Origin: Spongiivirga sp. MCCC 1A20706
Lineage (GTDB): Bacteria > Bacteroidota > Bacteroidia > Flavobacteriales > Flavobacteriaceae
Direction of reading: 5' to 3'
Length of the DNA stretch: 64,000 bases
NCBI RefSeq assembly: GCF_046524175.1
Contig: NZ_JBEFZF010000002.1
Location: forward strand, 107,304-171,303
This document shows, piece after piece, positions 9,531 to 33,705 of the stretch. The translations under genes were made by a program, and so were the position numbers. Positions within the stretch are counted from its first letter, which is position 1. Every line of letters begins with the position of its first letter. The notes under the pieces are model-generated. The model worked only from the letters and a program-made list of their open reading frames with translations. It ran no database searches and was not told where the DNA came from.

Positions 9531-9602
9531 TGATAAGTTAAAATTTGTTTGGGATGTGGTTTTTAAATATGTAAATTTGCCGACTGTTTTGAAGAAAAAC
9601 GG

Positions 9603-9650
9603 GGTCCTATAGCTCATCCCGATAGTTATCGGGAGGTTAGCGCACCTGAC
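9603..9650 (+). pseudogene. Degenerate 5' half of the tRNA-Met gene carrying an 18-nt hairpin insertion
   Basis: ggtcctatagctca[tcccgatagttatcggga]ggttagcgcacctgac matches positions 1-31 of the intact tRNA 110 bp downstream, then diverges. Confidence 0.55.
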
Positions 9651-9711
9651 GTAATAGTTAAGGCGCTTTAGGACTTGCAAAATACAATAAGTTAGTTTTC
9701 TACTAACAATA

Positions 9712-9785
9712 GGTCCTATAGCTCAGCTGGTTAGAGCACCTGACTCATAATCAGGGGGTCCATGGTTCGAGCCCATGTGGGACCA
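9712..9785 (+). tRNA. tRNA-Met (anticodon CAT; elongator-type stem, could alternatively be lysidine-modified tRNA-Ile2)
   Basis: Hand-folded cloverleaf: acceptor ggtccta/tgggacc, D stem gctc/gagc, anticodon stem cctga/tcagg with loop ctCATaa, T arm catgg-ttcgagc-ccatg. CCA not encoded. Confidence 0.85.
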
Positions 9786-9794
9786 CATTATTAA

Positions 9795-9828
9795 AAATCC
9801 AACCTATTAGTTAGGTTGGATTTTTTTG
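9795..9828 (+). terminator. Rho-independent terminator after the tRNA
   Basis: atccaacctattagttaggttggat hairpin followed by ttttttt. Confidence 0.75.
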
Positions 9829-9868
9829 TATAACCCAATGCACTGCTTAAGTATGTGTCAAAGAAACA

Positions 9869-11224
9869 TTAGAAATTTTTCTTAAACGACCTTGACAATG
9901 GTATGATTTCTTTATTCATTAGAACTAGGTAGTCCTTATTTATTTGTTTGATAAAGTTAGAGTTGACTATAAATGATCTATGACATTGAATAAAGTTTGG
10001 TGGTAGCTCTTCTTTGATTTTGCTTAACTTCCCCCTAACGAAATGGTTTTTCCCATTAGAAGTGAAAATATTCAAGTAGTGGTCATCTGACTTGAGATAG
10101 ATCAAATCTGAACTATAAATCTTGGTTTTATCTTTTAGAACCACATGATTTTTTATCACAATATTTTTAAGCTCATCAAGTTTTTGCAAGGTTTCGAATT
10201 TTTCAATTTTTAATGACCTAGACTTATTTAGATATTTTTTGTATCTGACAAAAACGATGATTAAAACAATGCTGATTGTAACCATTATTAAGAAAACAAA
10301 AATGTATCTATTCCTAAGGCGATTAATATTGTTATAAGCCTTTAAAAGACTTGCTTGGTTTCCTAAGTTTGGAGTTGTTCCGTTTTTTTTTAGTTCTTTC
10401 AATTCTAAATTTCTCAGGGCAATAGTCTTTTTTAGAAAGAAATACGCACTATCAATTTTATTTATTTTTTCATAGCTTTCTGTTAACCATTTTAAAGATG
10501 TTATTTGAACTGATTTCACCGTATCACGAGCTATATGTTTTTTTAAATATGGAACGGCTTTTTCATATTGTTTGTTAGCTAGATAGTTTAACCCAGTGCC
10601 CAAATCAATACTTTTTATTCCAGAATACTCATACCAAATAGGGTATTGTTCATATATTTCAGCTGCTATTGAATAGTGATGTGCTGCATTATCATACTCT
10701 TTAAGCCAATGGGATAAGTAGAATGCCAAAAGTTCATGATACATCCCCCTCGCAACACTTTTTTCACCGGAATATTTAAGCATTTGATCAAAACTTAATG
10801 ATACTTTTTCTTTACTGATACCGTCAGTATAATTCTCGGTAAAAATCAAACTAACGACAACAATTTTATAACTACGACGAAACTCTTCTGGTTGGAAATC
10901 ATAATATTTATTATTGGGAGAATAAAGAGTTGGTGAGTTTATTTTAAACCAAACTACTTTGTTCAGTGAATCACGAACTGAGTCTGTTATGTAATCTATG
11001 TTATTGTCTAAATATCCAAGGAGGTCAGAATACCTTAGACTTATTCCATAACCAGAGTTTAATGAGTCTCGTATTTTAAAATAGTCTAAGGAATCCTGTT
11101 GTTTTTTTGTAAGAGTCTTTTGGTTTTGATATGGTTCAACTAACCTTTTTGAATTTAAATTAGTGTTATATAAAACAGATGAAAGAAATAATCCTAAAGC
11201 ATAACCAGTTAGTAACTTAAACAT
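9869..11224 (-). CDS. Transmembrane one-component regulator: periplasmic TPR-like sensor region, one TM helix, cytoplasmic LytTR DNA-binding domain
   Basis: N-terminal signal/TM. Internal TM IFVFLIMVTISIVLIIVFV. C-terminal DDHYLNIFTSNGKNHFVRGKLSKIKEELPPNFIQCHRSFIVN is the LytTR signature. Confidence 0.75.
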   Translation of the reverse strand: MFKLLTGYALGLFLSSVLYNTNLNSKRLVEPYQNQKTLTKKQQDSLDYFKIRDSLNSGYGISLRYSDLLGYLDNNIDYITDSVRDSLNKVVWFKINSPTLYSPNNKYYDFQPEEFRRSYKIVVVSLIFTENYTDGISKEKVSLSFDQMLKYSGEKSVARGMYHELLAFYLSHWLKEYDNAAHHYSIAAEIYEQYPIWYEYSGIKSIDLGTGLNYLANKQYEKAVPYLKKHIARDTVKSVQITSLKWLTESYEKINKIDSAYFFLKKTIALRNLELKELKKNGTTPNLGNQASLLKAYNNINRLRNRYIFVFLIMVTISIVLIIVFVRYKKYLNKSRSLKIEKFETLQKLDELKNIVIKNHVVLKDKTKIYSSDLIYLKSDDHYLNIFTSNGKNHFVRGKLSKIKEELPPNFIQCHRSFIVNSNFIKQINKDYLVLMNKEIIPLSRSFKKNF

Positions 11225-11251
11225 TAAATAAAGTTAGATAATTAATTAAAA

Positions 11252-12910
11252 TCAGTTTTTATTTTTTAGAGACTTAGCTTTCCCTAAGTTATAGGTTAAT
11301 CCAAAAAATTGTCCGATACCAAGCTTTTCAACAGTAGGAATAGTCTCATTACTTGAAAATTGGTATCTGGTGTTTCCATCAGCGACAAATGAATCTTGAA
11401 TTGTAGTTGTTCTACCAACAGATATTCCATAATGAAAAACAAAACGAGACATTTTCCCAACAATGAAACCGCCTCCTAGCAGGAATTGAAATTTTTGTTC
11501 ATCAGTAAACATTGCTCCAAAGCTAAATGTTGGTTTAATCCATGTGCCGGTTCTATAAGATAGGTTGGCAACACTTCCAAAACCATAATTTAGCGAACCT
11601 AAATTTTTTTCATTTATAATTTGATATTCTTCATTTACACCGTTAAATTCTTCTGACATAGTTTGTATTGAGTATTCTTTGTTTGTCAGGGTAGATAAGA
11701 AGACACCAGCGCTGATATCAATTTTAAAACCACCTTTTATCCATATGTTATATTTTTTCTCATCTAAAAACGAGCTACTCTCTTTCTTAGCTCTTCTTTT
11801 CAATGTAAATTCCAATGCGTCAATATTTTTTCCGTCAAACTCATAAGGCAGAGTGTAGTGTTCAGTTTTAAATGAATACAATTTATCAATTGACTTGGAT
11901 GCTAACTCTACCAGAGGGATAAATTTGTTTTTTAGGGTTTCATTAAATAAGCCTGAATACTCTATATTTAAAGTATTTTCAGCCTTATGAGTGACTTTAT
12001 TGGTAGCATCAATAATGGCATCATATCTTTTTTCTAACGAGGTTCTTTTGTCCTTGTGTTTTTCAATAATTAGGTAATCTTTTGCCTCTAATTCGGACAA
12101 ATACAATTCAGCTTCTTTATTGACTTTTCTCATTCGAATGGAATTAGCTTCAATTTGTAATCTAAACCCTCTAAATTTTGCTTTGTTATCTATTTTTTCT
12201 TGCTTTTTTGCCTTATCATTAATTGGCTTTAAATCATTTTGAAGGGTTTCATATTTTTTATTTAAATCTTCTTTTTTTCTCCTATTTTGTTCTAAAGCAA
12301 TTTGTCCTTTTTGAATTTTTTGATTTAACTCAGATATTAAATTTTCCTTATCCTTGATTAATTTTTTGTTAGTGCCAATTAAACTCTGAATTTCAAAGTC
12401 AAAGCTTGTGTATTCAATTAGTTTTGTCTCACTGCTTAATTCTTGATTTCTAACCTTAATCTCTGAGATTTCATCACTCAAATTTGAGACAGTAGTTTTT
12501 AGCGTATCAATCTTCGAAGTGAAAGCCTCTATAGTTGTTACCCCGTTTATGGCTTTCCCTGCCTCTGACTCTTGATCAGTTGGTGAAGTTTTTTTTATCA
12601 AATCAATAACCCCCTCTTGTTTTTTTTCAAATCTTGCTTTTGAGTCTGAAAATAGATCTAAAGTTTTTTTATTGAGTTCATAGGTATATTTAAATGGATT
12701 TGCATTTTTTAACTTGAATGCCAAAAGTTGATTCGTTTTCACACTCAGCTTTTCTTTCAAACAGTCGGCTGAATCGTTTTCAATACAAATACTAGCAAAG
12801 CTATTAACTTTTGGGCTTGCCATGTCTAAAACAAAAACCTTTGTTTCTTGACAATAACTCTGAACACTAAATAAGATGAAAATAACAGACAATGAAATAC
12901 GTATAATCAT
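11252..12910 (-). CDS. Secreted coiled-coil protein with a beta-rich (possible outer-membrane barrel) C-terminus; hypothetical
   Basis: Signal peptide MIIRISLSVIFILFSVQSYCQ, long Lys/Glu heptad-rich centre, Gly/aromatic-rich C-terminal third. AT-rich codon usage. Confidence 0.55.
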   Translation of the reverse strand: MIIRISLSVIFILFSVQSYCQETKVFVLDMASPKVNSFASICIENDSADCLKEKLSVKTNQLLAFKLKNANPFKYTYELNKKTLDLFSDSKARFEKKQEGVIDLIKKTSPTDQESEAGKAINGVTTIEAFTSKIDTLKTTVSNLSDEISEIKVRNQELSSETKLIEYTSFDFEIQSLIGTNKKLIKDKENLISELNQKIQKGQIALEQNRRKKEDLNKKYETLQNDLKPINDKAKKQEKIDNKAKFRGFRLQIEANSIRMRKVNKEAELYLSELEAKDYLIIEKHKDKRTSLEKRYDAIIDATNKVTHKAENTLNIEYSGLFNETLKNKFIPLVELASKSIDKLYSFKTEHYTLPYEFDGKNIDALEFTLKRRAKKESSSFLDEKKYNIWIKGGFKIDISAGVFLSTLTNKEYSIQTMSEEFNGVNEEYQIINEKNLGSLNYGFGSVANLSYRTGTWIKPTFSFGAMFTDEQKFQFLLGGGFIVGKMSRFVFHYGISVGRTTTIQDSFVADGNTRYQFSSNETIPTVEKLGIGQFFGLTYNLGKAKSLKNKN

Positions 12911-13222
12911 GACAATTGTTTTTATGGTTGACTGTGTAAAACTATCTGTGAATCAATGATTAAAACAAAAAAATGTCGTGAATGACACCACAAATGACGT
13001 GAGTGGTATTAAAGAAATAAGAGAGGCTTTGTCTAATATTTTTTTTACAAACTTTTTGAGAGAAAGATGGATTTATAAATAAATCATTCTTACTATTTTT
13101 TAAAATAAATACTTAAAATCAGTAAGTCTTGTCTTCTGACATAAGAAACTGCTAGTAAACAAGAAATGCGTATTTTCTGAATATAAGTAGTAAGTTTACA
13201 TCTGTTCGGTTAATAGGATAAA

Positions 13223-13810
13223 ATGATTAAAAAAGGTAAAATGGATATAGTTGCAGGTGTATTTATATTAGTTGGCACTGCCATTGGGATTTGGGCTAAT
13301 GAAATAAACAAAAGAGAATCTGATAATCTCGAAAAAAAGAATAGTATACTTAGAAAGGAATTAAAAGAAATTTCTGAGGAAAATCTTCGGCTTTCAAAAA
13401 AGATGGAAAACTATGTAGAGTCATCAAACTATTTTAATAAAACTAATTTCTCTTATTTAAAAAAAGATTTCCCTTTGGGTTATACAGTTGTTAAGCAGAA
13501 TGAGGATTTTGATGATTTCGTTCAAGCTTTTGGCGAACATAGAGACTATGAATATTATGGCTCTAGAATATATCGTGATAAGGAAACCCAAGATTATTTA
13601 ATTGTACTTAAAGATTTTAAAATTAATATTAATGGGGTATCTATCTCGGGAGGAGAAACGGGGGTTAAAATTGATCCGGATAATTACAAAGACTATCAAT
13701 TACTTATGCCTCAACAACCTCTTTTAGATGTTAATATGGTAATACTAATGATCGATAGTAAACAAAAGTATACATACGCAATCGGTTTAATACCGAAGAT
13801 AAATAAATAG
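13223..13810 (+). CDS. Hypothetical membrane-anchored protein
   Basis: ORF with an N-terminal TM helix and a coiled-coil segment. No recognisable domain. Confidence 0.45.
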   Translation: MIKKGKMDIVAGVFILVGTAIGIWANEINKRESDNLEKKNSILRKELKEISEENLRLSKKMENYVESSNYFNKTNFSYLKKDFPLGYTVVKQNEDFDDFVQAFGEHRDYEYYGSRIYRDKETQDYLIVLKDFKININGVSISGGETGVKIDPDNYKDYQLLMPQQPLLDVNMVILMIDSKQKYTYAIGLIPKINK

Positions 13811-13845
13811 AATATTTAATATTATTTGGAAGTATGCGTTTAAGT

Positions 13846-15330
13846 TTATTTAAAATCCAAAATCCGAATACACTCATTAATTCTTCCTTCAAGAACTTTC
13901 TTATGTTGCGGATATCCAATATAAAGTTGTTTAGCTATTTCTGCTTTTTCCTTTGCTAACCTGAGACTTTTATTTTTGTTGGATCTCATATAAAGTAAGG
14001 CAAAAGCTAAATAAGAATCTGCTAACCTAGCCGCAGAGTTGACATCAGGTCTTTTGCTATTAATATTAGTTAGAATTTCTATAGCATCTTCGTAAAAAGT
14101 TTTTGCGTTTTTATAGTCATTTAGATCAGTATGAATCATACCTAAAAAATGTAGATTATTTGCATATCCAACCTTATCAAACGTGCTTCTGAGAGGTAAT
14201 ATTTGCTTAAAATATTTGTCAGATTGTAAAAAAAACGATTTAGCTTTCTTAAATTCCTTATTTCCTTTAATTACAATAGCGTAACTAGATAATATTGCAG
14301 CGTATCTTAATTTGTATATATATTCAGATTTATTGGGATAATGATTTAGTATTTTTTCTGCTTTTTTAAAATATACATCTACTAATTCATAATTTTTCTG
14401 ATGACCAAAATGATTTATTGAAGATATAATAGTTGTCATTAGTTCACTAAAATATGTGTTGTTTTTTTTGTAGGCTTTTTCTTTTAGTTTTAGTGCATTT
14501 AGAAGATAATCTTCCTTATTTGTAGCAATTTCAAATTCTATATTTGGGTTATTTAAAAGCGCAAATATATTTTGATTTATTGCCCCTAATTCCGCATCAT
14601 ATCCTTTATTATTATTTTCTTTTTTTAATTTATTATAAATATCTATCGCCTTTTGATAATTATGGAACGATTTTTCACCTAAACCTTTTGTCCTGTAAAA
14701 TATACCTAAATCCCTTAAGGTTTCCGCTTCATTTGCTAAGAGAAAGTTATCCTTATTAGAAATTTTACTAAAGGATGCTAGGGATTTTTTAAGATATGGT
14801 TCAGGATTTCTTTTAGTAGAAGCTAACCCTTGTAGAAATATATGTCCAATATAAGAGTTAGCGATTGCAATAATTTTATGGTCAAAAACTTCCTTTAGAA
14901 CAACTTCAAAAGAACTCAAAGACTCATTATACTCTTCTGAGATAAAATGAGCTATTGCCTTTTGAGTATTTGAAGCATTTTTGGATTTGGATTTTTCGAG
15001 AAATAACTTCAATCCTTTTATATCTAAGTTATATTGATTTTGTATATATATTTCAAATGCTTCATCTGGGTTGTTTATATCTACATCATTTTCTTTGAAA
15101 TATCTTGCTAACCCTAGAAGGGGCTTTAATTCTTTAAGAGTTTTGTCTTGTTCTTGGTTTTTTGTAATACCATTATTTCGATATAAAAGTCCCGCAACAG
15201 CTGCAATTACCACACAAATAAAAATAATCCAACTTAACATTTTTTGATTTTTGCTTGAATTCATAGACACAAATCTAAATAAATTGTTATTAAAATAGGC
15301 ATACAATTCGGTTGCCAGAAAAGTTGACAA
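13846..15330 (-). CDS. TPR-repeat protein with N-terminal membrane anchor
   Basis: TM WIIFICVVIAAVAGLLY followed by multiple degenerate 34-aa TPR-like repeats (..AIDIYNKL.., ..AEKILNHY..). Confidence 0.6.
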   Translation of the reverse strand: MSTFLATELYAYFNNNLFRFVSMNSSKNQKMLSWIIFICVVIAAVAGLLYRNNGITKNQEQDKTLKELKPLLGLARYFKENDVDINNPDEAFEIYIQNQYNLDIKGLKLFLEKSKSKNASNTQKAIAHFISEEYNESLSSFEVVLKEVFDHKIIAIANSYIGHIFLQGLASTKRNPEPYLKKSLASFSKISNKDNFLLANEAETLRDLGIFYRTKGLGEKSFHNYQKAIDIYNKLKKENNNKGYDAELGAINQNIFALLNNPNIEFEIATNKEDYLLNALKLKEKAYKKNNTYFSELMTTIISSINHFGHQKNYELVDVYFKKAEKILNHYPNKSEYIYKLRYAAILSSYAIVIKGNKEFKKAKSFFLQSDKYFKQILPLRSTFDKVGYANNLHFLGMIHTDLNDYKNAKTFYEDAIEILTNINSKRPDVNSAARLADSYLAFALLYMRSNKNKSLRLAKEKAEIAKQLYIGYPQHKKVLEGRINECIRILDFK

Positions 15331-15361
15331 GCTATTAATAGACTGTAAGTAAAGAAATTAT

Positions 15362-15392
15362 GGTCCATGGTTCGAGCCCATGTGGGACCACA
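15362..15392 (+). repeat. Direct repeat of the last 30 nt of tRNA-Met (attachment-site-like scar), followed by a diverged copy of the tRNA terminator
   Basis: ggtccatggttcgagcccatgtgggaccac is identical to 9757-9786. A further ~45 nt is near-identical, including the terminator hairpin at 15400-15432. Confidence 0.85.
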
Positions 15393-15399
15393 CTATTAA

Positions 15400-15432
15400 A
15401 AATCCAATCTAACTCAATAGATTGGATTTTTT
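15400..15432 (+). terminator. Rho-independent terminator (diverged copy of the tRNA terminator)
   Basis: atccaatctaactcaatagattggat hairpin followed by tttttt. Confidence 0.6.
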
Positions 15433-15642
15433 GTTTAAAATAGAAAGCGCCAGTATTGCTACTGGCGCCAACTTGAGTAAGACAGGGGAACTGCAGTTTA
15501 ACCAACCGCATGATAGATCATGGTAAGCGGAATAAGCATCAACATTGCAACGAGCAATACGTTTAATAATCTTACAAAATTTAAAAATCCGATTCGGTAG
15601 AATGTGTTTAACGTGTTCATAATAGTATGTTTTAAAAAGTTA

Positions 15643-17589
15643 TTATTGTCCTATTTGGTTAAATGATGATGTGTCGATTGCATTAGGGTTAGAGGCTTCA
15701 ATTTGAAAAATAGCATCGTTAAAATCGTTGTCTCCGTTAGGTACTGAAATGTCTTCGAATGCAATGACCGTAGACTGACAGGTTTGATCGTAAAACAGAA
15801 TACTTTGCTGTCGTCCGCTTAAATTAAAATTGATGTCGGTGTGTTGAGAATAATATCCATCAGTGATACTTCCGTTTCTCCATCCGTTGGCGATCAGGAA
15901 AAATCCAACTACCGTACCTGATTCAAAACTACCTAGTAATCGCATTGTATTACCTCGAATGAGTCCGCCACCGGATCCTTGTGCCGAAGCATTTGGAAAT
16001 ATGACAGTTTTATCCAGGTCATTTACACTTGCCGGAGGATTATCCTGATTATAGGTATAGTAGCCTAGCACATTTTTATACCCTGCGCCTTCATCAATAA
16101 ATGTTAAGTATAGATCGGTTTCTTCACTTATATATAATTCTTTTACTGGGTTTGTAAAGTACTCGGGATGTGCTTGCATCGCATTTTGTCGTTCCGGAAG
16201 AACATTTTGGTAGATATTAGGGAGTAATGTACTGCACACTTCAACATCTTCTTCCATTCCGTCTGGCACTCCTTTTTCATCATAGGTAGTAACCGTTTTG
16301 TATTCGTCCTTTTCTCTTTTGCGCAGAATTTTGAATCCGCCACCACCTTTGGCAACAAAAACCCATTCACCATCAGCCATGATAAAGTTAGCAGAGGCGT
16401 CATCTTCCTGCATATCCCAGAAAAATACCGGATTTATTTCTTCGCCTTCGACCGTAGGGTGCTTCGCAATAGCAATACCGTCTGCACCATTGGCCATATA
16501 GATATAGTCATTATCGGTAGTAATTCCGTTTGTATTACCAACAACTAGCATTAACCCTTCAGATTCATTTAAGATCGTGCCAGAATTGACATCAACATTG
16601 GCCAAACCATACTTGCCCTTAGCGACATATAGTTGATTACTATGTATTGGGGAAAATTCCATCGTAGATTTACCGCGATATGTTTCTACTACATTTTGAT
16701 GAAAAATGCTGCCTATAGGAAAGCTAGTGGTATTCAATGCATCATTTACATCGGCAACCCTTATAAAAGCCTCATCTCCTGTGATCAGACTTGCTACTTT
16801 CGAGTTGTCGGAATTAAGCGCCAAGTACTTCGCATTGGCATATACTTCGTGGTCTAAGGCATTGAGATTATCCTTATTTAGAATAACGGTACCACCATGT
16901 GTTTTTCCCGAAGTGATATAGATATAATTATCAGTAGAAGCAATACCATTTGCTGAGGCAGAAACTCCTGAGTTTTCAAATACATTTGACAAATTAACCC
17001 GTTTGAAATCGGAGTTGAACTGCCCATTTGTTGTTGTGAGTTCAAATAATTGAGCTCCGTGCACATTATCCGACATGGCAGTCCAAATTTTCCGCAGACT
17101 ATTTGATCCTTCAAAGTCAGACGTCAACGCATTGACATCGGCATTATTAAAGTAAACCTGACTTATTATTTCAGGAAAATTAGGATTGGAAAGATCAATG
17201 ATTTCAACCGCACCCTTGTGTAAATCACCTTGCTTGTGATAGCTTACATATGCCTTGTCGTCAGCCAAGGTAATATGTGTCGCGCTTAGGGTAAACCCTC
17301 CAAGAACCAGAGGGTCTACTTCTGCAACATGCTCCCAGAAGTAATTTTCTTGCGCACCATTTACTTTAGCGGTTGAAAATTTTCCGGTCTTTGTTTTTAC
17401 AACTGGTTTAATAGTGGCAGTTCTATTAATAAAACGCAGCCGTTTTGTTAACTCATTTCTGTCATTGTTTACCGAAAAAGGATTTTCATCGATTGGTGCT
17501 TCAATTAATTCAGCTGTATTTTCTTCTGTACTACAACTTAGGAATCCTATAATAAGGACTATTTTAAATAGTATTTTTACTGTCTTCAT
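15643..17589 (-). CDS. Lipoprotein with LVIVD-type beta-propeller repeats and a C-terminal DUF4114-like region
   Basis: Lipobox IGFLSCS. Repeated ..YIYITSG.., ..YIYMANGADGIAIAK.. motifs. C-terminal GFFLIANGW...DGYYSQ...NDFNDAIFQIE. Confidence 0.55.
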   Translation of the reverse strand: MKTVKILFKIVLIIGFLSCSTEENTAELIEAPIDENPFSVNNDRNELTKRLRFINRTATIKPVVKTKTGKFSTAKVNGAQENYFWEHVAEVDPLVLGGFTLSATHITLADDKAYVSYHKQGDLHKGAVEIIDLSNPNFPEIISQVYFNNADVNALTSDFEGSNSLRKIWTAMSDNVHGAQLFELTTTNGQFNSDFKRVNLSNVFENSGVSASANGIASTDNYIYITSGKTHGGTVILNKDNLNALDHEVYANAKYLALNSDNSKVASLITGDEAFIRVADVNDALNTTSFPIGSIFHQNVVETYRGKSTMEFSPIHSNQLYVAKGKYGLANVDVNSGTILNESEGLMLVVGNTNGITTDNDYIYMANGADGIAIAKHPTVEGEEINPVFFWDMQEDDASANFIMADGEWVFVAKGGGGFKILRKREKDEYKTVTTYDEKGVPDGMEEDVEVCSTLLPNIYQNVLPERQNAMQAHPEYFTNPVKELYISEETDLYLTFIDEGAGYKNVLGYYTYNQDNPPASVNDLDKTVIFPNASAQGSGGGLIRGNTMRLLGSFESGTVVGFFLIANGWRNGSITDGYYSQHTDINFNLSGRQQSILFYDQTCQSTVIAFEDISVPNGDNDFNDAIFQIEASNPNAIDTSSFNQIGQ

Positions 17590-17595
17590 AGTTAT

Positions 17596-17820
17596 TTAAT
17601 TTGAGGTATTTTGTATATGACGAATCATGGTTTGTTGTGCTTTTACTTGTGCCTTTTTCAATGTTGGTTGAAAATCGGTTTCGTCTCTTGAAACACGAAT
17701 CATTTGATTGCCTTTGTATACAATCCACCAAAATTTTGAAGGTTTTAAAAATTCAGCTTTAAGGTGATATCCGTCTCCTGTTTTGACGTGTTTCCAGTCT
17801 TTATTTCCTGTCCATTGCAT
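17596..17820 (-). CDS. Small hypothetical protein (74 aa), immediately upstream of the lipoprotein gene
   Basis: ORF only. Trp/Lys-rich. No recognisable motif. Confidence 0.35.
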   Translation of the reverse strand: MQWTGNKDWKHVKTGDGYHLKAEFLKPSKFWWIVYKGNQMIRVSRDETDFQPTLKKAQVKAQQTMIRHIQNTSN

Positions 17821-17936
17821 AATACTTGGGGTTTAATTACAATGATAAATTTAGCGTTAGATTACCCTTTAGTGAGTTGTTTTTCGGCGGGTGGACGTTT
17901 GCTGTAGATGGATGGAAAAAAGAAGAGGATTATTGG

Positions 17937-19256
17937 TTATAAGCCTGCTTTCTTTGCTTGGATAGAAGATTTGTAAGGGTTCCATGTATCTTCAAAAGAC
18001 CGCTTAAAAAAGAATTCTTTATAGTAGGCAGCTGTACGAACGATTCTTAAGTATGTGCCAGTATAAATGGTCATCAAAGAAACATATGGCCATAAGTACA
18101 GTTCTTCTTTTCTGCGTTCTGAAAAAACGTAAATACTACACATTTGCACATAGCTCATTACAAAATATAGGGTAAAGTTCATGGGAATGACAAATTGCAG
18201 TTGACTGCTGTAATTAACAATAATATCAATAATGTAAAACCACCATAGTATATCAAGTACTACATTGTAAAATACATTTTCGGCAAGCGAAAAGAAGGTC
18301 GACCAGTTGAAGTTAGCGTTGGGGAAGTATACATCTTTGTGTTTGCGAACTCTAAATCGTATGATCGATTTATCCCAGCGCAATCGTTGTTTGGTTAATA
18401 CTTTAAATTTGGAAGGCGCATTGGTTAAGCAAATAGCACTGGGCTCAAAACAAACTTTATAACCTGATTTTCTAATTTTAACGGTAATGTCTCCGTCTAA
18501 ACCGGGGCCAATATCCCAACCTCCTATAGCATCAATGACATCTGCTCTAAAAGCGCCAAATGCTCCTGAAATAATTTTATAAATTCCTAAATATGAGGTG
18601 ATGATTCGGCCTACTGAAACGGTTTTTAGATACTCAATTGCCTGCAATCTGGCGCATAAACTTTCCTTATAATTTCTAACTTTTACATTGCCACCCACGG
18701 CTGCAATTTTTTCGTTCATGTAAAAAGGAACCAATACATTTTCGATAGCATCATAATCAAAAGAACAATCGGCGTCAAGATGTACAATGTATTTGCCGCT
18801 ACTATATCGCAACGCTAAATTGGCAGCAGAGGCTTTACCTCCTCGCATTTCGTTTCTAATAAATTTATCGATTAAACCTAGGCGTTCTAAGTTTTTACCG
18901 ATAATTGGGGTGTCATCGTCAGAGCCATCATCAACAATAATGAGTTCAAAGTTTGAAAAAGTTTGTTCTGCTAATGATTTTGTTAATTTGTAAAGATGTT
19001 TTCCTTCGTTCTTACCCGGAATTATAACTGAAACAAATGGATTTTCAAGACGTAATAATTGCCTGGCTTTTTCGAATTTTTTAGCGCGCTTTTTTCTGTT
19101 AATCCAAAATATTAATGCCACTATATAATCAATAATGATGTATCGGGTAAACTCAAACAAAATGAAATACCAAAAAACCCGAATGAATTTTGGTAACCCT
19201 ACTTCATTCCAATAGTTAATATATTCAGGTACTATATTTTCTAATTGTAATGACAT
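17937..19256 (-). CDS. Processive family-2 glycosyltransferase (membrane-embedded polysaccharide synthase; PgaC/NodC/HasA-like)
   Basis: VSVIIPGKNEG...LIIVDDGSDD (DxD) ...QRLRW (QxxRW processivity motif). TM helices at both ends. 439 aa. Confidence 0.85.
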   Translation of the reverse strand: MSLQLENIVPEYINYWNEVGLPKFIRVFWYFILFEFTRYIIIDYIVALIFWINRKKRAKKFEKARQLLRLENPFVSVIIPGKNEGKHLYKLTKSLAEQTFSNFELIIVDDGSDDDTPIIGKNLERLGLIDKFIRNEMRGGKASAANLALRYSSGKYIVHLDADCSFDYDAIENVLVPFYMNEKIAAVGGNVKVRNYKESLCARLQAIEYLKTVSVGRIITSYLGIYKIISGAFGAFRADVIDAIGGWDIGPGLDGDITVKIRKSGYKVCFEPSAICLTNAPSKFKVLTKQRLRWDKSIIRFRVRKHKDVYFPNANFNWSTFFSLAENVFYNVVLDILWWFYIIDIIVNYSSQLQFVIPMNFTLYFVMSYVQMCSIYVFSERRKEELYLWPYVSLMTIYTGTYLRIVRTAAYYKEFFFKRSFEDTWNPYKSSIQAKKAGL

Positions 19257-19260
19257 GCAA

Positions 19261-20643
19261 TTAGTTGAATTGTTTTAAAATATCATCAATTGTTTCACCT
19301 GATTTAGGCTGATGTGTTTGGATATTAATAGCTAACAACTGCTCTTGTAAATTATCACCTAGAAGTTTTCCTAAGTTATATTGAATGGTTTCAAGGCGTT
19401 GAGGTAGTGGTTCTTTTGTGTCGGGCAGTAATAGGTAATATGAATTATAAGCGTCTGCGGCCAAAACATCACTTGGTAATAAATAGGATTGAATAATTGT
19501 TCCTATTTCCTTTACTAATGCCTTTTTTGTGTCATCATCAAAATGACCTAAGCGGTTGTTTTCAAAACGGATAGAAGCCATTTGACTTGTTGCTTTACTT
19601 ATAGTTATTCTTTTTAACTCTTGTCCTGCAATAATTTTAAACAAAGACAAGGTCATTATGCCATCGGGAGAAATAGATATTTGGCTGTTTTGTTGCACAT
19701 TTCCTAGTAACCATTCTTCTCCTAACGATGTGATACTGTATGTGCCAATGGTCTTTTTTATTAAGGCGGAAAGTTCATTTTCCGTTTCGCAATCAATGCA
19801 TTTAGCCACCATATTCGGTGTTTGAAATTCATGGTTACAACAGTTGCAGTTATACATGGATGATGGCTTGTCATAATCGATACCAATATGCCTTAATTGC
19901 TTATCGCACTTAGGGCAAGATAATCCCTCTTTTGTTTTAAAGTCTTTTTCCGGGGCAACATGGGCACAAACGAAGTGATGTACAATGTCTTGTGCTTTGA
20001 TATCGATACTATCACACTTAGGGCAGGTTTCAATAAAATTCAAGTAATTACCGTGACAATTTTTACATAAATGAACATGGTCATGTAGTTTCATCGTCAG
20101 ATGACCAGATGCCACGCTTTTTTCAAGCATTAATAATTTAGGCAGTACTTCCTCCTTTTTATAAAAAAGATCAATTAATGGAAGGATATACCCAATTAAG
20201 CTTGTTCTATCTGCAATCGGTTCTATTGGATGATTTCTGGTGAAAAGAAAAGCCAAGATTTTGTATTGCAATTGGTCATCGTGGGCTCCATTTTTTGTAA
20301 GCGATATCCTTTTAAGACGCTTGCTGATCACGTCAATACGGTTGACAGCTATTGGGAGCTGATCGATATCAATATATCCATCAGTATGTATGCCAACAGT
20401 CTTATGTAATTGGCAAGTAGCGTTTATAAAAATGGGTTTTAACGCAATTGCCAAATCGGCGTTTTTGCGAATATGAAAGACCAAGTCTGTTGCATGTTCT
20501 TTGTTTTCCGTGTTGATAATAACAGCATCGATATAGGTTAAAGGCTCATGCAGCAGCACCGATAGGTGATCAACTTTTAGCATGGTGTAACCTGAGAACT
20601 GAATCTTATTGGAACGGTCGTTATGTCGTAGAACATTTAACAT
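19261..20643 (-). CDS. Cys-rich protein with five Cys pairs (zinc-ribbon-like); possible TackOD1-like output/regulatory domain
   Basis: CKNC...CPKC...CPKC...CNCC...CIDC within about 90 aa, flanked by non-membrane domains. 4-nt spacing to the GT2 gene. Confidence 0.6.
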   Translation of the reverse strand: MLNVLRHNDRSNKIQFSGYTMLKVDHLSVLLHEPLTYIDAVIINTENKEHATDLVFHIRKNADLAIALKPIFINATCQLHKTVGIHTDGYIDIDQLPIAVNRIDVISKRLKRISLTKNGAHDDQLQYKILAFLFTRNHPIEPIADRTSLIGYILPLIDLFYKKEEVLPKLLMLEKSVASGHLTMKLHDHVHLCKNCHGNYLNFIETCPKCDSIDIKAQDIVHHFVCAHVAPEKDFKTKEGLSCPKCDKQLRHIGIDYDKPSSMYNCNCCNHEFQTPNMVAKCIDCETENELSALIKKTIGTYSITSLGEEWLLGNVQQNSQISISPDGIMTLSLFKIIAGQELKRITISKATSQMASIRFENNRLGHFDDDTKKALVKEIGTIIQSYLLPSDVLAADAYNSYYLLLPDTKEPLPQRLETIQYNLGKLLGDNLQEQLLAINIQTHQPKSGETIDDILKQFN

Positions 20644-20676
20644 GACTTGGTCTATTGTCAGGGGACTAGTTTAAAA

Positions 20677-22041
20677 TTAAAGCGACATATATACGCTTGC
20701 AGGGATTTTATCTTTCATATTCCCTTTAATATCAAAGATGATGGCGTCGTCTTTTGCATTTTTCAACAAATCGAAATAGCCTAAGTCTTGATAATCTGTA
20801 TGATCAACGGCTAGCACGATCGCATCAAAACGTTCAGAAGTGCTTTTAGTAAGTTCAATCCCATAATGCTGCTTTACTTCATCAGCATTAGCCATATAAT
20901 CTTGTACGCAAACTTGAAATCCTTTTTCTTTTAGAGCAAGGCAAAGTTCAGCAGCTTTTGAGTTACGAATATCATTGACGTTTTCTTTAAAGGTGATTCC
21001 CTTTACCAGAATAGTGTGTTGCTTTTTTTGCAAACCGTTTCTATATACTCGTTTACTAATTTCGCTTACAATATGTGGAACCATACTTTCATTGACTTTG
21101 CGAACTTGTTCAAGAAGTTTGGGTTCGATTTTATGCTGCTTTGCTTTATGAATTAGATAATAAGGATCTACACCAATACAATGACCTCCGACTAAACCTG
21201 GATAGTAGTGATGAAAATTCCACTTACTTCCTGCAGCTTCTAAAACTTCTTTTGTATTAATATCCAATTTGTTAAATATCTGAGAAAGCTCATTCATTAA
21301 ACCGATGTTTACATCTCGTTGAATATTTTCAACAACTTTTGCGGCTTCTGCAACTCGAATGGTAGCTGCCCGGTATACGCCCGCTTTCACAGCACTTTCG
21401 TAAACATCAGCAATAACTTCTAAAGCTTCTGGAGTACTTCCGGAAACGATTTTCTTAATACTTGTAAACGTATGTTGTGTATCCCCTGGATTAATTCGCT
21501 CAGGAGAGTATCCGATGGTAAAGTCTTCATTATATTTTAGGCGTGAAATACGCTCTAAAATGGGTACGCACACTTCTTCTGTACAGCCCGGATATACGGT
21601 AGATTCGAAAACAACACAATCGCCCTTTTTTAAATGACGAGCTACGGTAGCAGTAGCAGCCATTATCGGTCTTAGGTTCGGTTTTTTTAAATGATCTATA
21701 GGAGAAGGTACCGCTACAATATAAAACTTTGCGCTAGCCAGTACCTTATCGTTTGCACTAAAAGCAATGTCTTTTCCTTTAAATTCGTCAGCGGCTAGTT
21801 CGCCACAGGGATCTTGATGTTGTGCAATTTGAACAACTTTTTCTTCGCTAATATCAAAACCTACTACCTTAAAGTGAGCAGCCATATGTACCGCTAAAGG
21901 AAGCCCTACATATCCCAGACCAACGACAGCGATTTGTTCTTCTTTGTTTTTTAGTTTTTTGAAAAGATCACTTTGCTTGTAACCAAGTGTAGGTTGATCA
22001 AAATCATTTACATGTAGGTTGTATTTTAATTGTGTGTTCAT
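20677..22041 (-). CDS. UDP-N-acetyl-hexosamine 6-dehydrogenase (TviB/WbpO/Cap5O family nucleotide-sugar dehydrogenase)
   Basis: IAVVGLGYVGLPLAV Rossmann motif typical of the UDP-HexNAc dehydrogenase subfamily. GGHCIGVDPYY catalytic-Cys region. Confidence 0.85.
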   Translation of the reverse strand: MNTQLKYNLHVNDFDQPTLGYKQSDLFKKLKNKEEQIAVVGLGYVGLPLAVHMAAHFKVVGFDISEEKVVQIAQHQDPCGELAADEFKGKDIAFSANDKVLASAKFYIVAVPSPIDHLKKPNLRPIMAATATVARHLKKGDCVVFESTVYPGCTEEVCVPILERISRLKYNEDFTIGYSPERINPGDTQHTFTSIKKIVSGSTPEALEVIADVYESAVKAGVYRAATIRVAEAAKVVENIQRDVNIGLMNELSQIFNKLDINTKEVLEAAGSKWNFHHYYPGLVGGHCIGVDPYYLIHKAKQHKIEPKLLEQVRKVNESMVPHIVSEISKRVYRNGLQKKQHTILVKGITFKENVNDIRNSKAAELCLALKEKGFQVCVQDYMANADEVKQHYGIELTKSTSERFDAIVLAVDHTDYQDLGYFDLLKNAKDDAIIFDIKGNMKDKIPASVYMSL

Positions 22042-22169
22042 AATAGTAAGATTTAATGGGTTATAATTTCTGATACTAAATTAGTTTTGATATTGTTGTA
22101 AAGAGCTGCTTTTTAGTTTGATAGAAGACTCTTGTAGATGAATGGTCGTTATCCTTAGACGGATGGTTT

Positions 22170-23222
22170 TTAGCGGAAAGTCTTGTTTAATGAAATGGAA
22201 ACGTTTAACATATGATAAGCTCCCCAGCGATCTTTCTGTTCCGCTCGCAAAGGGATTATTTCTGCAAGAATATTTCGTTCTGTGGGCTCATACTTTTTCT
22301 GGAATTCTATAGGAGCCGTATAAGTGGATACATATAATTTATTAATAACCCCTTTTTCTTTTGTTTGATCCGGAAATAGTATATCGACGATGTCCCCCTC
22401 GTCAAGATGTGCCGCGTCTTTAAGATCAAAATATCCTTTTATAAATACTTTTTCGGTGTTGTGTATGGTCATTACCCGCTCTCCTTTATAACAAGACTCT
22501 TCTCTATTTTTGTGAATTTGACCAATAATACCATTAATAGGAGATAGGTAACTGCTTCTATGGCTGGAATAACCACCAGTACTTAGGTCGAAAATAGTAG
22601 GTTGTGTTGCGTGATTATTGTTGTTTCTTAATAGGGAAGTCTGGGAAAGCAAAAAACGTATCTCGTTATTAAGCAATGAAATCTTGTTTTTGGCAAGTAG
22701 AATTTGATTCCTAATCCCTTCTAATTTTTCTTTGGTATACACATCTAATAACACCAGTTTTATCATCTTTTCTAGTTGTTGATCTAACTGATTTGTATGA
22801 TTGTATAGGTTGTTTCGTTCTATTCTCTTTTGGGCTATTTTGAAAGCTAAATCCTGCAAGGCATCATTTTTTTTCTCGTTTTTCCCCTCAGATCGTAATA
22901 AGACAGCTGCTTCATTGTCAAACTCATTTTGTTGATATGAAAATAGGTTCTGATCTATTTGTACGGAATCACCTTCTTGAACAGATAGTTGTTTAATCCG
23001 AATATCTTGTGTAAAATTTACATCTATTTTATCCATAACAACCATACCATTTGCTTTAACGATAGCCACTTTGGTATATAGATATTTTGCTAAGAAACCA
23101 AAGGCGATTAATACAAGAATAAAATATACTAACCTATCGAAGTTGAATTTCTTCTTCTTCACTACCGGTTCTTTAAGGGTTCGAATCTTTGCGGTTTCTT
23201 TTTGATAAGAAAATGTCCTCAT
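22170..23222 (-). CDS. HlyD-family periplasmic adaptor (membrane fusion protein)
   Basis: N-terminal TM LVYFILVLIAFGFLA, long coiled coil, C-terminal beta-barrel-like region. About 350 aa. Confidence 0.75.
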   Translation of the reverse strand: MRTFSYQKETAKIRTLKEPVVKKKKFNFDRLVYFILVLIAFGFLAKYLYTKVAIVKANGMVVMDKIDVNFTQDIRIKQLSVQEGDSVQIDQNLFSYQQNEFDNEAAVLLRSEGKNEKKNDALQDLAFKIAQKRIERNNLYNHTNQLDQQLEKMIKLVLLDVYTKEKLEGIRNQILLAKNKISLLNNEIRFLLSQTSLLRNNNNHATQPTIFDLSTGGYSSHRSSYLSPINGIIGQIHKNREESCYKGERVMTIHNTEKVFIKGYFDLKDAAHLDEGDIVDILFPDQTKEKGVINKLYVSTYTAPIEFQKKYEPTERNILAEIIPLRAEQKDRWGAYHMLNVSISLNKTFR

Positions 23223-23226
23223 GTTC

Positions 23227-24753: not shown

Positions 24754-24810
24754 ACAGCCAAACTAACCCCATAAAGTTGTTTATATCATATTAATCGATA
24801 GAAGGGTAAA

Positions 24811-24858
24811 TTAGTGTCGACGAGAGGAGTTTTTAGTTCGGTGATTAGAAATTATATT
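24811..24858. promoter_or_regulatory. Conserved upstream box (ttagtgtcgacga-N-agtttt-N-tcg-N-ga-taNaaatta), copy 1, 60-100 nt upstream of the polysaccharide operon start
   Basis: 13/13 identity plus extended similarity to 28656-28700 upstream of the H-NOX operon. Confidence 0.5.
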
Positions 24859-24940
24859 TCAAATATTTAGGGATCAAGAGGTAGACTGCTCCCTTCCTTT
24901 GAGGGAAGGGTGTTCAATTACATTTTAATATCCTGAAGAG

Positions 24941-24983
24941 AACACCCCTCTATATCTCTCCTCAAGGGGAGACTTTAATATGG
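24941..24983. repeat. Hairpin repeat copy 2, nested in a highly structured region at 24880-24990
   Basis: Same 43-nt element as 9488-9530. Adjacent stems cccttcc/ggaaggg and gggtgttc/gaacaccc. Confidence 0.6.
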
Positions 24984-25010
24984 CGCTTACAAGGGTATTG
25001 AAAACGTATT

Positions 25011-32666: not shown

Positions 32667-33151
32667 CTTGACAAAGACATGCGCTGTAACGGAGGCTATG
32701 TCATATTTTTGGGCGTTTCCATGATACTTGTTTAATTGCTCGATCATGGTCGGGCCTGCCTGTCTGCAGACAGGCTTTCGCCGGTCGCTTTTTTAATTTA
32801 AAAACAGCATAAATAACCCATCTTTCCATCGCGGAAATCTCATTTTTTGTATAATCGCTACAATCAGTATTTAATAGTTGAGTTGGCAGCTGATATCAAA
32901 TTAAAACCCTATATCGTTTGCAAAGCCGCATACTAAAAAGTAATTGCTTAAACCATCAATAAAATGGCTATTTCAGGCATTTTCAAGACTGTTTTTAAGG
33001 TGCTTTAACCTAAAAAACCGAGTTACAAATGCTGTTCTTTTTTGCTGTTTTATGCCCAGCGTGGCTTGGAGACCAGTTTTACAAGATGGTCAGCTTAAGT
33101 TGCCATATCCTTAATATGGTGCGTTTACCAATTTCGCCATTCCGATTTTTC

Positions 33152-33636: not shown

Positions 33637-33705
33637 ATTTTAAAGCTTCCCTCTTTAATAAAGATGGGAATGAATTCAAATTCAGCTTTGCTTAAGAAAG
33701 GGGAG

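What the first reader, a model, noticed from the sequence alone, without database searches (positions are those of the whole stretch)
9603..15432. tRNA-Met flanked by a 30-bp direct repeat of its 3' end enclosing a 5.6-kb AT-rich insert without integrase
- **Seen in sequence:** the last 30 nt of the tRNA (9757-9786) recur exactly at 15362-15392, with a diverged copy of the downstream terminator as well. Between them the DNA is visibly more AT-rich than the flanks.
- **Insert genes:** a transmembrane LytTR regulator, a coiled-coil secreted protein, a TPR protein and a hypothetical. There is no integrase or excisionase.
- **Further scar:** a 5'-half tRNA copy with an 18-nt hairpin insertion lies 110 bp upstream of the intact tRNA.
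- **Inference:** a decayed integrative element at a tRNA attachment site, or repeated integration and excision, that delivered a regulatory and surface-protein cassette.
Basis: seen in the sequence. Interest (0 to 1): 0.55.

Follow-up and report, generated by a model that had tools for sequence, protein, structure and literature searches.

The report
Integrase-less genomic islet at tRNA-Met
A 5.6-kb piece of foreign, AT-rich DNA carrying four envelope and regulatory genes sits in the end of a tRNA gene, an ordinary relic of a mobile element; the odd half-tRNA copy just upstream is a separate, apparently undescribed repeat.

Summary
tRNA-Met(CAT) lies at 9712-9786. Its last 31 nt recur exactly at 15362-15392, and the repeat continues at about 80% identity through a second terminator hairpin. 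The 5.6 kb in between is the strongest compositional outlier in the window and holds four envelope or regulatory genes and no integrase.

The same tRNA-Met, next to the same epimerase gene, is an integration site in other Flavobacteriaceae. In Mangrovimonas a 6.8-kb low-GC island with the same repeat layout still encodes a tyrosine integrase. The best reading is therefore a cargo-only remnant of an integrative element, like a cis-mobilizable element (CIME). This is an ordinary, known kind of feature. No close relative exists in the collections, so no empty site could be shown.

The "further scar" is not an integration scar. The half-tRNA copy carrying TCCCGATAGTTATCGGGA also occurs in another genus and in 14 metagenome contigs. 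There it lies upstream of Met, Asn, His and Ile tRNAs, sometimes in tandem, and sometimes next to small GIY-YIG nuclease genes. The 18-bp palindrome is itself a dispersed repeat. I found no description of it. This is the only unusual element here.

The parts
9548..9579 (+). Bacteroidetes-type promoter-like motif (TTTG, 20 nt, TAAATTTG) in front of the tRNA locus
   Evidence: Read from the sequence. The same position in about 50 Flavobacteriaceae loci carries TTGCA..TAATATTGCA directly before the tRNA or before the 5' head copy. That it is a promoter is inference.
9603..9650 (+). Displaced tRNA 5' fragment: positions 1-14 (9603-9616), the 18-nt palindrome TCCCGATAGTTATCGGGA in place of D-loop nt 15-17 (9617-9634), then GGTTAGCGCACCTGAC (9635-9650). 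It folds into a compact tRNA-like structure up to about 9676.
   Evidence: RNA fold -35.8 kcal/mol, z = -3.9. Same unit in Spongiimicrobium L055 and in 14 metagenome contigs. No Rfam family matches it.
9712..9786 (+). Intact tRNA-Met(CAT). The acceptor stem has C4-G69 and C5-G68, so it could be the lysidine tRNA-Ile2 type; this was not decided.
   Evidence: ARAGORN. Rfam tRNA 69.3 bits. 75/75 identical in Cellulophaga, Maribacter and Spongiimicrobium.
9757..9829 (+). Left repeat (attL): tRNA from the variable loop to the 3' end (31 nt exact), a 19-nt spacer and a bidirectional terminator hairpin (9797-9821) with T-run
9869..11224 (-). 451-aa membrane-anchored regulator: N-terminal signal or TM segment, TPR-like region, TM helix near residues 307-327, C-terminal LytTR DNA-binding domain
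   Evidence: Pfam LytTR E = 8.8e-19. 42-45% identical homologues lie next to CC552 homologues in L081-L083. GC 0.296.
11252..12910 (-). 552-aa secreted protein (CC552): signal peptide, small beta domain, long coiled coil (about 124-345), C-terminal beta-barrel (about 365-549)
   Evidence: No Pfam hit. Only 22 relatives among 5.8 billion proteins. AlphaFold pLDDT 77. Only weak Foldseek hits, to small outer-membrane barrels.
13223..13810 (+). 195-aa membrane-anchored protein of unknown function (the NCBI start corresponds to 13241)
   Evidence: No Pfam hit. 8 relatives among 1.8 billion representatives.
13846..15330 (-). 494-aa ORF for a membrane-anchored TPR protein (the NCBI model is 472 aa, starting at 15264); an orphan
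   Evidence: Pfam TPR_12 E = 1.2e-10. Only a self hit in the protein collection. Lowest GC3 in the window, 0.194.
15362..15434 (+). Right repeat (attR): 31-nt tRNA 3' fragment with no 5' part, spacer and terminator hairpin (15402-15427) with T-run. Presumed to be the resident tRNA end and terminator from before the insertion.
15446..15469 (-). Terminator-like hairpin of the convergent DUF4114 gene (15643-17589, -). It marks the native right flank.
   Evidence: The DUF4114 cluster is conserved in relatives (L098-L100) and has native composition.

Best explanation
The segment 9787-15361 is a horizontally acquired genomic islet. It entered the T-arm/3' end of the chromosomal tRNA-Met(CAU) gene by site-specific recombination of the tyrosine-integrase type.

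The incoming DNA carried a replacement tRNA 3' end with its own terminator. This now completes the tRNA (attL, 9757-9829). The resident 3' end and terminator were displaced 5.6 kb downstream (attR, 15362-15434).

The integration and replication genes have since been lost, leaving a cargo-only, CIME-like islet tightly packed with four envelope-associated genes. Two of these form a conserved pair that probably works together: an outer-membrane coiled-coil/beta-barrel protein and a membrane-spanning LytTR regulator.

Shown: the repeats, the foreign composition, the gene content, the absence of an integrase, and use of the same site by integrase-bearing elements in relatives. Inferred: the recombination event itself, which end is native, loss of the integrase, and the function of the cargo.

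The half-tRNA copy upstream (9603-9650) is an unrelated and older feature.
For: - **Repeat.** It is the tRNA's own 3' part. It begins just before the T-stem, has only two copies in the window, and has sharp outer limits.
- **Identity pattern.** The non-functional fragment at attR is 31/31 identical, while the adjoining roughly 40 nt are about 20% diverged with a compensatory stem change. Under equal neutral decay, 0 differences in 31 nt has a probability of about 0.001 (my calculation). This fits a cross between two related but non-identical sites. The tRNA is 75/75 identical across several genera, so a foreign site would match in the tRNA part only.
- **Composition.** GC is 0.291 against 0.356. 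The four genes are the lowest-GC genes in the window. The tetranucleotide distance is about 12 SD from the other windows.
- **Synteny.** FtsX-RbfA-epimerase-tRNA-Met is conserved in about 50 Flavobacteriaceae loci, and in five genera compared in detail synteny ends exactly at the tRNA.
- **Same site used by integrases.** Mangrovimonas L001 has a 6.8-kb island (GC 0.315 against 0.37) flanked by the tRNA 3' end plus a diverged terminator. It encodes an Arm-DNA-bind_5/Phage_int_SAM_5/Phage_integrase protein, a rolling-circle Rep and an HNH protein. L050 has such an integrase 191 nt after the tRNA. L008, L066 and L070 have integrase homologues 1-4 kb downstream.
- **Cargo.** CC552 and the LytTR protein are adjacent or nearly adjacent in three other genomes, at a different chromosomal site that has no tRNA. 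They therefore arrived here as a module.
Against: - No integrase, excisionase or remnant of one lies in the insert or anywhere in the 64 kb.
- No empty site could be shown. The nearest homologues of flanking and cargo proteins are only 40-87% identical, and the conserved DUF4114 cluster is not next to a tRNA in relatives.
- Only 42 nt (left) and 31-97 nt (right) separate the repeats from coding sequence. This leaves little room for integrase arm sites.
- Both terminators resemble the native terminator of Spongiimicrobium, so an intragenomic duplication is not formally excluded.
- Low GC is also typical of orphan and membrane-protein genes.
Confidence: 0.7

Rival explanations
1. The islet is not dead. 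It is a still-mobile, integrase-less satellite that is excised and integrated in trans, or in cis after accretion, by a tyrosine integrase encoded elsewhere in the genome or on an incoming element using the same tRNA-Met site.
For: Both att copies are intact, and the tRNA-derived 31 nt are undecayed. Several integrase-bearing elements use this site in the family. CIMEs are defined as elements that kept attL and attR but lost integration and transfer genes, and they can move with an ICE integrated next to them (PMC5704250).
Against: No integrase lies within 64 kb. There is almost no non-coding DNA next to the repeats for arm-type sites. No second copy or relative of the islet was found in 5.8 billion proteins beyond 40% identity.
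Confidence: 0.15
2. The duplication was not made by an integrase. A segmental duplication of the tRNA 3' end plus terminator arose first, for example by double-strand-break repair or nuclease-driven amplification as seen around GIY-YIG genes. Foreign DNA was then captured between the copies by illegitimate recombination.
For: In Flavobacterium MAG L061 the same tRNA-Met is followed by repeated 3' tRNA copies with their downstream spacer, next to GIY-YIG genes. The phage GIY-YIG enzyme SegB drives segmental amplification of tRNA regions (PMC13096335). Both window terminators are homologous to a relative's native terminator. The locus already carries a 5' head duplication.
Against: The right copy has no palindrome-substituted loops, and the window has no GIY-YIG gene. 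The pattern of 31/31 identity next to 20% divergence does not fit an old in-place duplication. Integrase-bearing islands with the same geometry exist at this site.
Confidence: 0.1
3. Nothing was inserted. The four genes are native, fast-evolving genes, and the repeat is a relic of an ancient tandem tRNA pair.
For: Myroides L075 has two tandem tRNA-Met genes at this locus. Other parts of the window (22-30 kb) also have lowish GC, 0.31-0.34.
Against: The insert is more extreme than every other window and the change is sharp at the repeats. There is no tRNA 5' remnant at the right copy. The tRNA fragment is undecayed. The cargo module sits at another locus in the other genomes that have it.
Confidence: 0.04

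Closest known systems
Cis-mobilizable elements (CIMEs) and decayed tRNA-linked genomic islets
   Same: Flanked by attL and attR derived from the 3' end of the target gene. Integration and transfer genes are absent. Only cargo is left (definition in PMC5704250).
   Different: CIMEs were defined in streptococci as derivatives of known ICEs or IMEs, with mobilisation shown experimentally. Here neither the parent element nor mobility is known. The islet is very small (5.6 kb) and has almost no non-coding DNA at its ends.
tRNA-integrated islands with tyrosine integrases, e.g. the 6.8-kb element at the same tRNA-Met in Mangrovimonas aestuarii (L001), or PYG1 of Pyrococcus yayanosii flanked by 44-bp tRNA repeats (PMC9897764)
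   Same: Intact tRNA at one end and a 3' tRNA fragment at the other. Low GC. In L001 the same chromosomal locus, a similar size, and a diverged copy of the terminator inside the repeat.
   Different: Those elements encode their integrase, and L001 also encodes a Rep and an HNH protein; the window element does not. No gene is shared between the L001 island and the window islet. The identity block is 14 nt in L001 against 31 nt here.
For the 5' head and palindrome: free-standing GIY-YIG homing endonucleases in tRNA clusters (phage T4/T6 SegB), and small mobile palindromes such as Rickettsia palindromic elements, mitochondrial double-hairpin elements and REP
   Same: In several contigs GIY-YIG genes lie next to duplicated tRNA segments. 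SegB homologues are enriched next to tRNAs and cause segmental amplification (PMC13096335). A short constant palindrome is dispersed over many sites, including RNA genes. The comparison with RPE, DHE and REP is from my own knowledge.
   Different: The elements here are chromosomal and in Bacteroidota. The GIY-YIG proteins are only 70-100 aa. The displaced tRNA fragments have loops replaced by one 18-bp palindrome. The window copy has no ORF. No GIY-YIG gene lies next to the palindrome in viral contigs. No cleavage or mobility has been shown.

Membership tests
tRNA-integrated genomic island / integrative element | Direct repeats made of the 3' part of a tRNA gene, with the intact tRNA at one end | tested here: met
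   31 nt exact, 50 nt at 96%; only two copies in the window.
tRNA-integrated genomic island / integrative element | Composition and gene content foreign to the flanks | tested here: met
   GC 0.291 against 0.356; tetranucleotide distance about 12 SD out; orphan or rare genes.
tRNA-integrated genomic island / integrative element | Encodes a site-specific recombinase (integrase) | tested here: not met
   Pfam, NCBIfam, PHROGs and tblastn with two integrases from the same att site found nothing in the insert or the window.
tRNA-integrated genomic island / integrative element | Empty site in related genomes, or detectable excision | not testable with these tools
   The source is Spongiivirga sp. 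MCCC 1A20706 and the next relatives are 70% identical or less in flank proteins. Exact look-ups and a metagenome scan for the junction found nothing. DUF4114 clusters in relatives have no adjacent tRNA.
tRNA-integrated genomic island / integrative element | The same attB is used by integrase-encoding elements in related genomes | tested here: met
   L001 island with integrase and flanking repeat; L050, L008, L066 and L070 have integrases just downstream of the orthologous tRNA.
CIME (cis-mobilizable element) | Retains attL and attR but lacks integration and transfer genes | tested here: met
   definition from PMC5704250.
CIME (cis-mobilizable element) | Derived from an ICE or IME and mobilisable by a related element integrated alongside it | not testable with these tools
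   No parent element or relative of the islet was found. Testing needs the whole genome and experiments.
REP/MITE-type dispersed repeat (as an explanation of the flanking repeat) | Many dispersed copies independent of the tRNA | tested here: not met
   Two copies only, one of them the tRNA itself.
Integration scar (as an explanation of the 5' half copy at 9603-9650) | A duplicated tRNA segment specific to this locus that bounds, or once bounded, an element | tested here: not met
   It is a 5' fragment and is shared with Spongiimicrobium. The same head-plus-palindrome unit lies upstream of Met, Asn, His and Ile tRNAs in 14 metagenome contigs, in tandem arrays of up to four.
Free-standing GIY-YIG homing-endonuclease cassette at a tRNA gene | A GIY-YIG ORF adjacent to the duplicated tRNA segment | tested here: not met
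   No GIY-YIG ORF in the window. One is present in L061, L084, L089, L090 and L091. The window copy could at most be an ORF-less derivative.
Free-standing GIY-YIG homing-endonuclease cassette at a tRNA gene | The endonuclease cleaves the uninterrupted tRNA gene and the cassette is copied in | not testable with these tools
   Requires biochemistry or polymorphic strain pairs.

The most novel reading that the evidence does not exclude
The half-tRNA copy upstream of the tRNA belongs to an undescribed class of selfish or repair-derived features of Bacteroidota tRNA loci. In this class, partial tRNA gene copies are displaced next to the intact gene, in some genomes together with a 70-100-aa GIY-YIG nuclease gene. 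The D-, anticodon- or T-loops of the displaced copies are replaced by one dispersed 18-bp palindrome, TCCCGAWAGYTWTCGGGA. The palindrome itself is a mobile micro-element that also occurs in phage-like contigs, at terminator tips and in rRNA genes. The window copy would be an ORF-less member, fixed since before Spongiivirga and Spongiimicrobium diverged or acquired independently in each.
Probability: 0.4. Interest if true: 0.7.

Novelty: new member of a known kind. Interest (0 to 1): 0.35.

Why it matters
The islet adds one more small, integrase-less island at a tRNA gene. It shows that the epimerase-linked tRNA-Met of Flavobacteriaceae is a recurrent integration hotspot where synteny ends. It also delivers a little-known gene pair (outer-membrane coiled-coil/barrel protein plus membrane-bound LytTR regulator) that could be studied as a unit.

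The by-product matters more. Displaced tRNA fragments carrying an invariant palindrome, sometimes next to tiny GIY-YIG genes, suggest an unrecognised way in which tRNA loci of Bacteroidota are remodelled. Such fragments can also be miscalled as tRNA genes or as att scars by annotation and island-prediction tools.

Tried and rejected
- **Exact-sequence look-ups.** Three window proteins are not on record, so the source genome is not in the contig index.
- **Metagenome scan for the att junction.** A scan for the tRNA end plus spacer found nothing.
- **Search for an empty site.** I looked through the closest DUF4114 homologues. The 7-gene cluster is conserved but has no tRNA beside it.
- **RNA families.** Rfam at a permissive threshold on the region and on related loci gave only tRNA and rRNA.
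- **Cargo annotation.** PADLOC, PHROGs and NCBIfam gave nothing meaningful. The fold search of the CC552 model gave only weak outer-membrane-barrel resemblance.
- **Plasmid BLAST** of the head unit found nothing.
- **tRNA 5' remnant next to the right repeat:** none.
- **Idea that the palindrome always caps a pre-existing hairpin.** Some clear cases exist at terminator tips. Over 53 viral sites, however, flank complementarity is no better than with shuffled flanks (p = 0.13). I do not claim it.
- **Idea that GIY-YIG genes accompany the palindrome everywhere.** None lies near it in 55 viral stretches. The link holds only for the tRNA-fragment contexts, and those loci were fetched by matching the hairpin, which biases the sample.
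- **Literature.** Searches for the palindrome sequence and for GIY-YIG with tRNA in Bacteroidetes found nothing relevant.

Full report
**Observation**

ARAGORN and Rfam place one canonical tRNA-Met(CAT) at 9712-9786. The repeat finder gives a 50-nt direct repeat, 9757-9806 / 15362-15411, at 96% identity and spaced 5605 nt. The first 31 nt are identical. They run from the variable loop through the T-arm to the 3' end of the tRNA.

A 24-nt probe of the tRNA end, allowing three mismatches, has only these two sites in 64 kb; none is expected by chance. A global alignment shows that the repeat continues with small indels through two terminator hairpins, 9797-9821 and 15402-15427. These differ by a compensatory C-G to T-A pair, and similarity stops at the T-runs. 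Upstream of 15362 there is no trace of the tRNA 5' part.

**Composition**

The enclosed DNA has GC 0.291 against 0.356 for the window, and no other window of the same length is as low. Its four genes are the four lowest-GC genes of 40 (GC3 0.19-0.27 against 0.316 +/- 0.031). The tetranucleotide distance to the rest of the window is 0.305, against 0.126 +/- 0.015 for all other windows. The change coincides with the repeats.

**Gene content**

The insert is almost entirely coding.
- 9869-11224 (-) encodes a 451-aa protein with an N-terminal hydrophobic segment, a TPR-like region, a transmembrane helix and a C-terminal LytTR domain (Pfam E = 8.8e-19).
- 11252-12910 (-) encodes a 552-aa protein (CC552) with no Pfam match. 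Its AlphaFold model (pLDDT 77) has a signal peptide, a small beta domain, a coiled coil of about 220 residues and a C-terminal beta-barrel. Foldseek finds only weak resemblance to small outer-membrane barrels.
- 13223-13810 (+) encodes a 195-aa membrane-anchored protein with 8 relatives among 1.8 billion representatives.
- 13846-15330 (-) encodes a TPR protein that matches only itself in the protein collection.

No integrase, excisionase, replication or transfer gene was found by Pfam, NCBIfam, PADLOC or PHROGs. tblastn with two integrases taken from the same att site in other genera gives nothing better than E = 0.9 anywhere in the window. The next 15 kb downstream hold a DUF4114/GT2/TackOD1/UDP-glucose dehydrogenase cluster and signalling genes, again without a recombinase.

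**Source and relatives**

The flank protein DUF4114 and the cargo proteins are 100% identical to proteins of Spongiivirga sp. MCCC 1A20706. The next best hits are 71% or less for the flank and 40% for cargo. Window proteins are not in the contig index. A metagenome scan for the tRNA end plus spacer found nothing. A strain-level empty site therefore cannot be obtained with these collections.

At family level, FtsX-RbfA-epimerase-tRNA-Met is conserved in about 50 of 80 Flavobacteriaceae loci. In five genera compared by tblastx, similarity to the window ends exactly at the tRNA. The DUF4114 cluster is conserved as a block in relatives but is not next to a tRNA there.

**Is this tRNA a real integration site?**

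Yes. In Mangrovimonas aestuarii (L001) the orthologous tRNA-Met is followed by a 6.8-kb segment of GC 0.315, with flanks at 0.37. The segment ends in a second copy of the tRNA 3' end (14 nt exact) followed by a diverged copy of the terminator, the same geometry as in the window. That island encodes a 409-aa Bacteroidetes-type tyrosine integrase (Arm-DNA-bind_5, Phage_int_SAM_5, Phage_integrase), a rolling-circle Rep and an HNH protein. Housekeeping Tex follows the right repeat.

A Flavobacterium MAG (L050) has such an integrase 191 nt after the tRNA. L008, L066 and L070 have integrase homologues 1-4 kb downstream, and L030 has the Rep homologue. Other loci carry defence-like genes (AbiJ, WYL) right after the tRNA.

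**Interpretation of the islet**

The repeat has the form expected of an attL/attR pair made by a recombinase acting in the T-arm region; the sublocation classes are from Williams 2002, cited from memory.

The identity pattern is informative. The right-hand tRNA fragment cannot be functional, yet it is 31/31 identical. The adjacent terminator part is about 20% diverged, and both hairpins remain intact. If the two copies had diverged neutrally from one duplication, 0 differences in 31 nt would have a probability of about 0.001 (my calculation). The pattern fits recombination between two related but non-identical sites that share the highly conserved tRNA part. The tRNA is 75/75 identical in Cellulophaga, Maribacter and Spongiimicrobium.

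Both terminators resemble the native terminator of Spongiimicrobium. The donor site therefore probably came from a fairly close relative, and I cannot say from sequence which end is native. By the standard model the right copy is the resident one. It then lies 15 nt from the terminator of the convergent DUF4114 gene, which gives a tidy reconstructed empty site.

The absence of any recombinase, and the very short non-coding DNA at both ends (42 nt, and 31-97 nt), make a cargo-only remnant the best description. This is a CIME in the sense of PMC5704250. tRNA fragments of this origin are common (PMC9897764). I put 0.70 on this reading, 0.15 on a still trans-mobilisable satellite, 0.10 on a mechanism without an integrase and 0.04 on a native region.

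**Cargo**

Homologues of CC552 (36-40% identity) and of the LytTR protein (41-45%) lie in the same order and on the same strand in three other marine Flavobacteriaceae contigs. There they are separated by one or two small genes and sit between dxs and a dCMP deaminase gene, with no tRNA nearby. The pair is thus a conserved module that here travelled on mobile DNA.

A plausible working model is a one-component, membrane-spanning regulator that senses an envelope signal and acts together with the outer-membrane protein. This is inference only.

**The 'further scar'**

The unit at 9603-9650 consists of tRNA positions 1-14, the palindrome TCCCGATAGTTATCGGGA in place of D-loop nt 15-17, then GGTTAGCGCACCTGAC. 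It lies directly after a Bacteroidetes-type promoter-like motif. In most relatives that motif directly precedes the tRNA.

The same unit, with the identical palindrome, sits at the same place in Spongiimicrobium sp. 3-5 (L055), although the spacers around it are unalignable. Saonia has a head copy with a different insert.

The exact 29-mer spanning the palindrome occurs in 14 metagenome contigs. In 18 units across L055, the window and the 12 of those contigs that hold an intact downstream tRNA, the 14 nt before the palindrome match the first 14 nt of that tRNA (12-14 of 14). The tRNA is Met, Asn, His or Ile. Arrays of two to four units occur.

In four independent contigs a 70-101-aa GIY-YIG ORF (Pfam E = 2e-12 to 2e-7; one is a pseudogene) lies between the head and the tRNA, or just after the tRNA. 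In Flavobacterium MAG L061, at the very same epimerase-tRNA-Met locus, 3' tRNA copies with palindromes in the anticodon and T loops alternate with two GIY-YIG genes.

Palindrome variants show symmetric changes (C2/G17 to T/A; T7/A12 to A/T). The perfect palindrome TCCCGATAGCTATCGGGA occurs 53 times in IMG/VR contigs, and the window's AGTT variant occurs 6 times. By my estimate about one occurrence is expected by chance. Nested and half-site-expanded forms occur, and some copies sit at terminator tips. One contig (L093) has copies in the rRNA spacer and inside the 23S gene.

Two generalisations failed. Flank complementarity is not significant overall. No GIY-YIG gene accompanies the palindrome in the viral contigs.

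No Rfam family, plasmid match or paper covers these sequences. The nearest described analogue is phage SegB, a GIY-YIG homing endonuclease associated with tRNA genes that drives their segmental amplification (PMC13096335).

I conclude that the window's half-tRNA copy is not an integration scar. It is an ORF-less member of a recurrent and apparently undescribed kind of tRNA-locus remodelling. Its mechanism is unknown. My best guess is nuclease-associated partial duplication of the tRNA gene, followed by invasion of the dead copy's loops by a mobile palindrome. I give that guess a probability of about 0.4.

**Verdict**

The main inference is supported at the level of comparative evidence, and the result is an ordinary kind of feature. 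The 'repeated integration' reading is not supported. The small upstream element deserves a follow-up of its own.

Noticed in passing
window 9603-9650; L055 10461-10509; L084-L097: A tRNA 5' head (nt 1-14) followed by the invariant palindrome TCCCGATAGTTATCGGGA and the D-arm 3' side recurs upstream of Met, Asn, His and Ile tRNAs, in tandem arrays of up to four units. In some contigs a 70-101-aa GIY-YIG ORF sits between the head and the intact tRNA. No Rfam family or paper covers it.
   Followed up: partly
L102-L156 (IMG/VR contigs); L016 9920; L093 845 and 1746: The 18-bp perfect palindrome TCCCGATAGCTATCGGGA is a dispersed repeat: 53 sites in viral contigs against about 1 expected. It has nested and half-site-expanded forms. 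It also occurs in an rbfA-epimerase spacer, an rRNA spacer and inside a 23S rRNA gene.
   Followed up: partly
L061 10481-11660: In a Flavobacterium MAG the orthologous tRNA-Met is followed by repeated 3' tRNA copies whose anticodon and T loops are replaced by palindromes. Each copy has a terminator and a GIY-YIG gene whose stop codon lies inside the tRNA-like piece. An assembly gap of 100 N lies within the array.
   Followed up: partly
L001 10535-17340 (Mangrovimonas aestuarii): A 6.8-kb low-GC integrative element at the same tRNA-Met, flanked by a 14-nt tRNA repeat plus a diverged terminator. It encodes a tyrosine integrase, a rolling-circle Rep (PF23343), an HNH protein and a MORN-repeat protein. 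It may be an integrated small plasmid or ssDNA phage. A 74%-identical Rep is in L030.
   Followed up: partly
window 33100-33640 (- strand): A cluster of odd tRNA-like pieces in a gene-free stretch. ARAGORN calls a 75-nt 'tRNA-Tyr' with anticodon ATA and its own terminator (33562-33636). Rfam finds a weak 64-nt tRNA match (33148-33211, 34 bits). There are also isolated T-arm/acceptor fragments such as GGTCGTGGGTTCGAATCCCAC.
   Followed up: no
window 15643-25712 (- strand); L098-L100: A conserved gene cluster shared with several Flavobacteriaceae: response regulator with LytTR domain, two unknown proteins (one HlyD-like), UDP-glucose dehydrogenase, TackOD1-domain protein, GT2 glycosyltransferase and a DUF4114 protein. 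In the window it is preceded by an H-NOX (HNOB) protein and a PAS histidine kinase.
   Followed up: no
window 49736-61912 (+ strand): Five consecutive paralogous ORFs of about 800 aa. The two that were scanned are MacB_PCD + FtsX permease-type proteins.
   Followed up: no
L081-L083: The CC552-like outer-membrane protein and the roughly 512-aa membrane LytTR regulator form a conserved operon-like unit, with one or two small genes between them, lying between dxs and a dCMP deaminase gene in three marine Flavobacteriaceae contigs.
   Followed up: partly
window 9712-9786: The 'tRNA-Met(CAT)' has C4-G69 and C5-G68 in the acceptor stem, as in E. coli tRNA-Ile2 (lysidine). It may therefore decode AUA as isoleucine rather than Met. 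This rests on my own knowledge of TilS determinants and was not tested.
   Followed up: no
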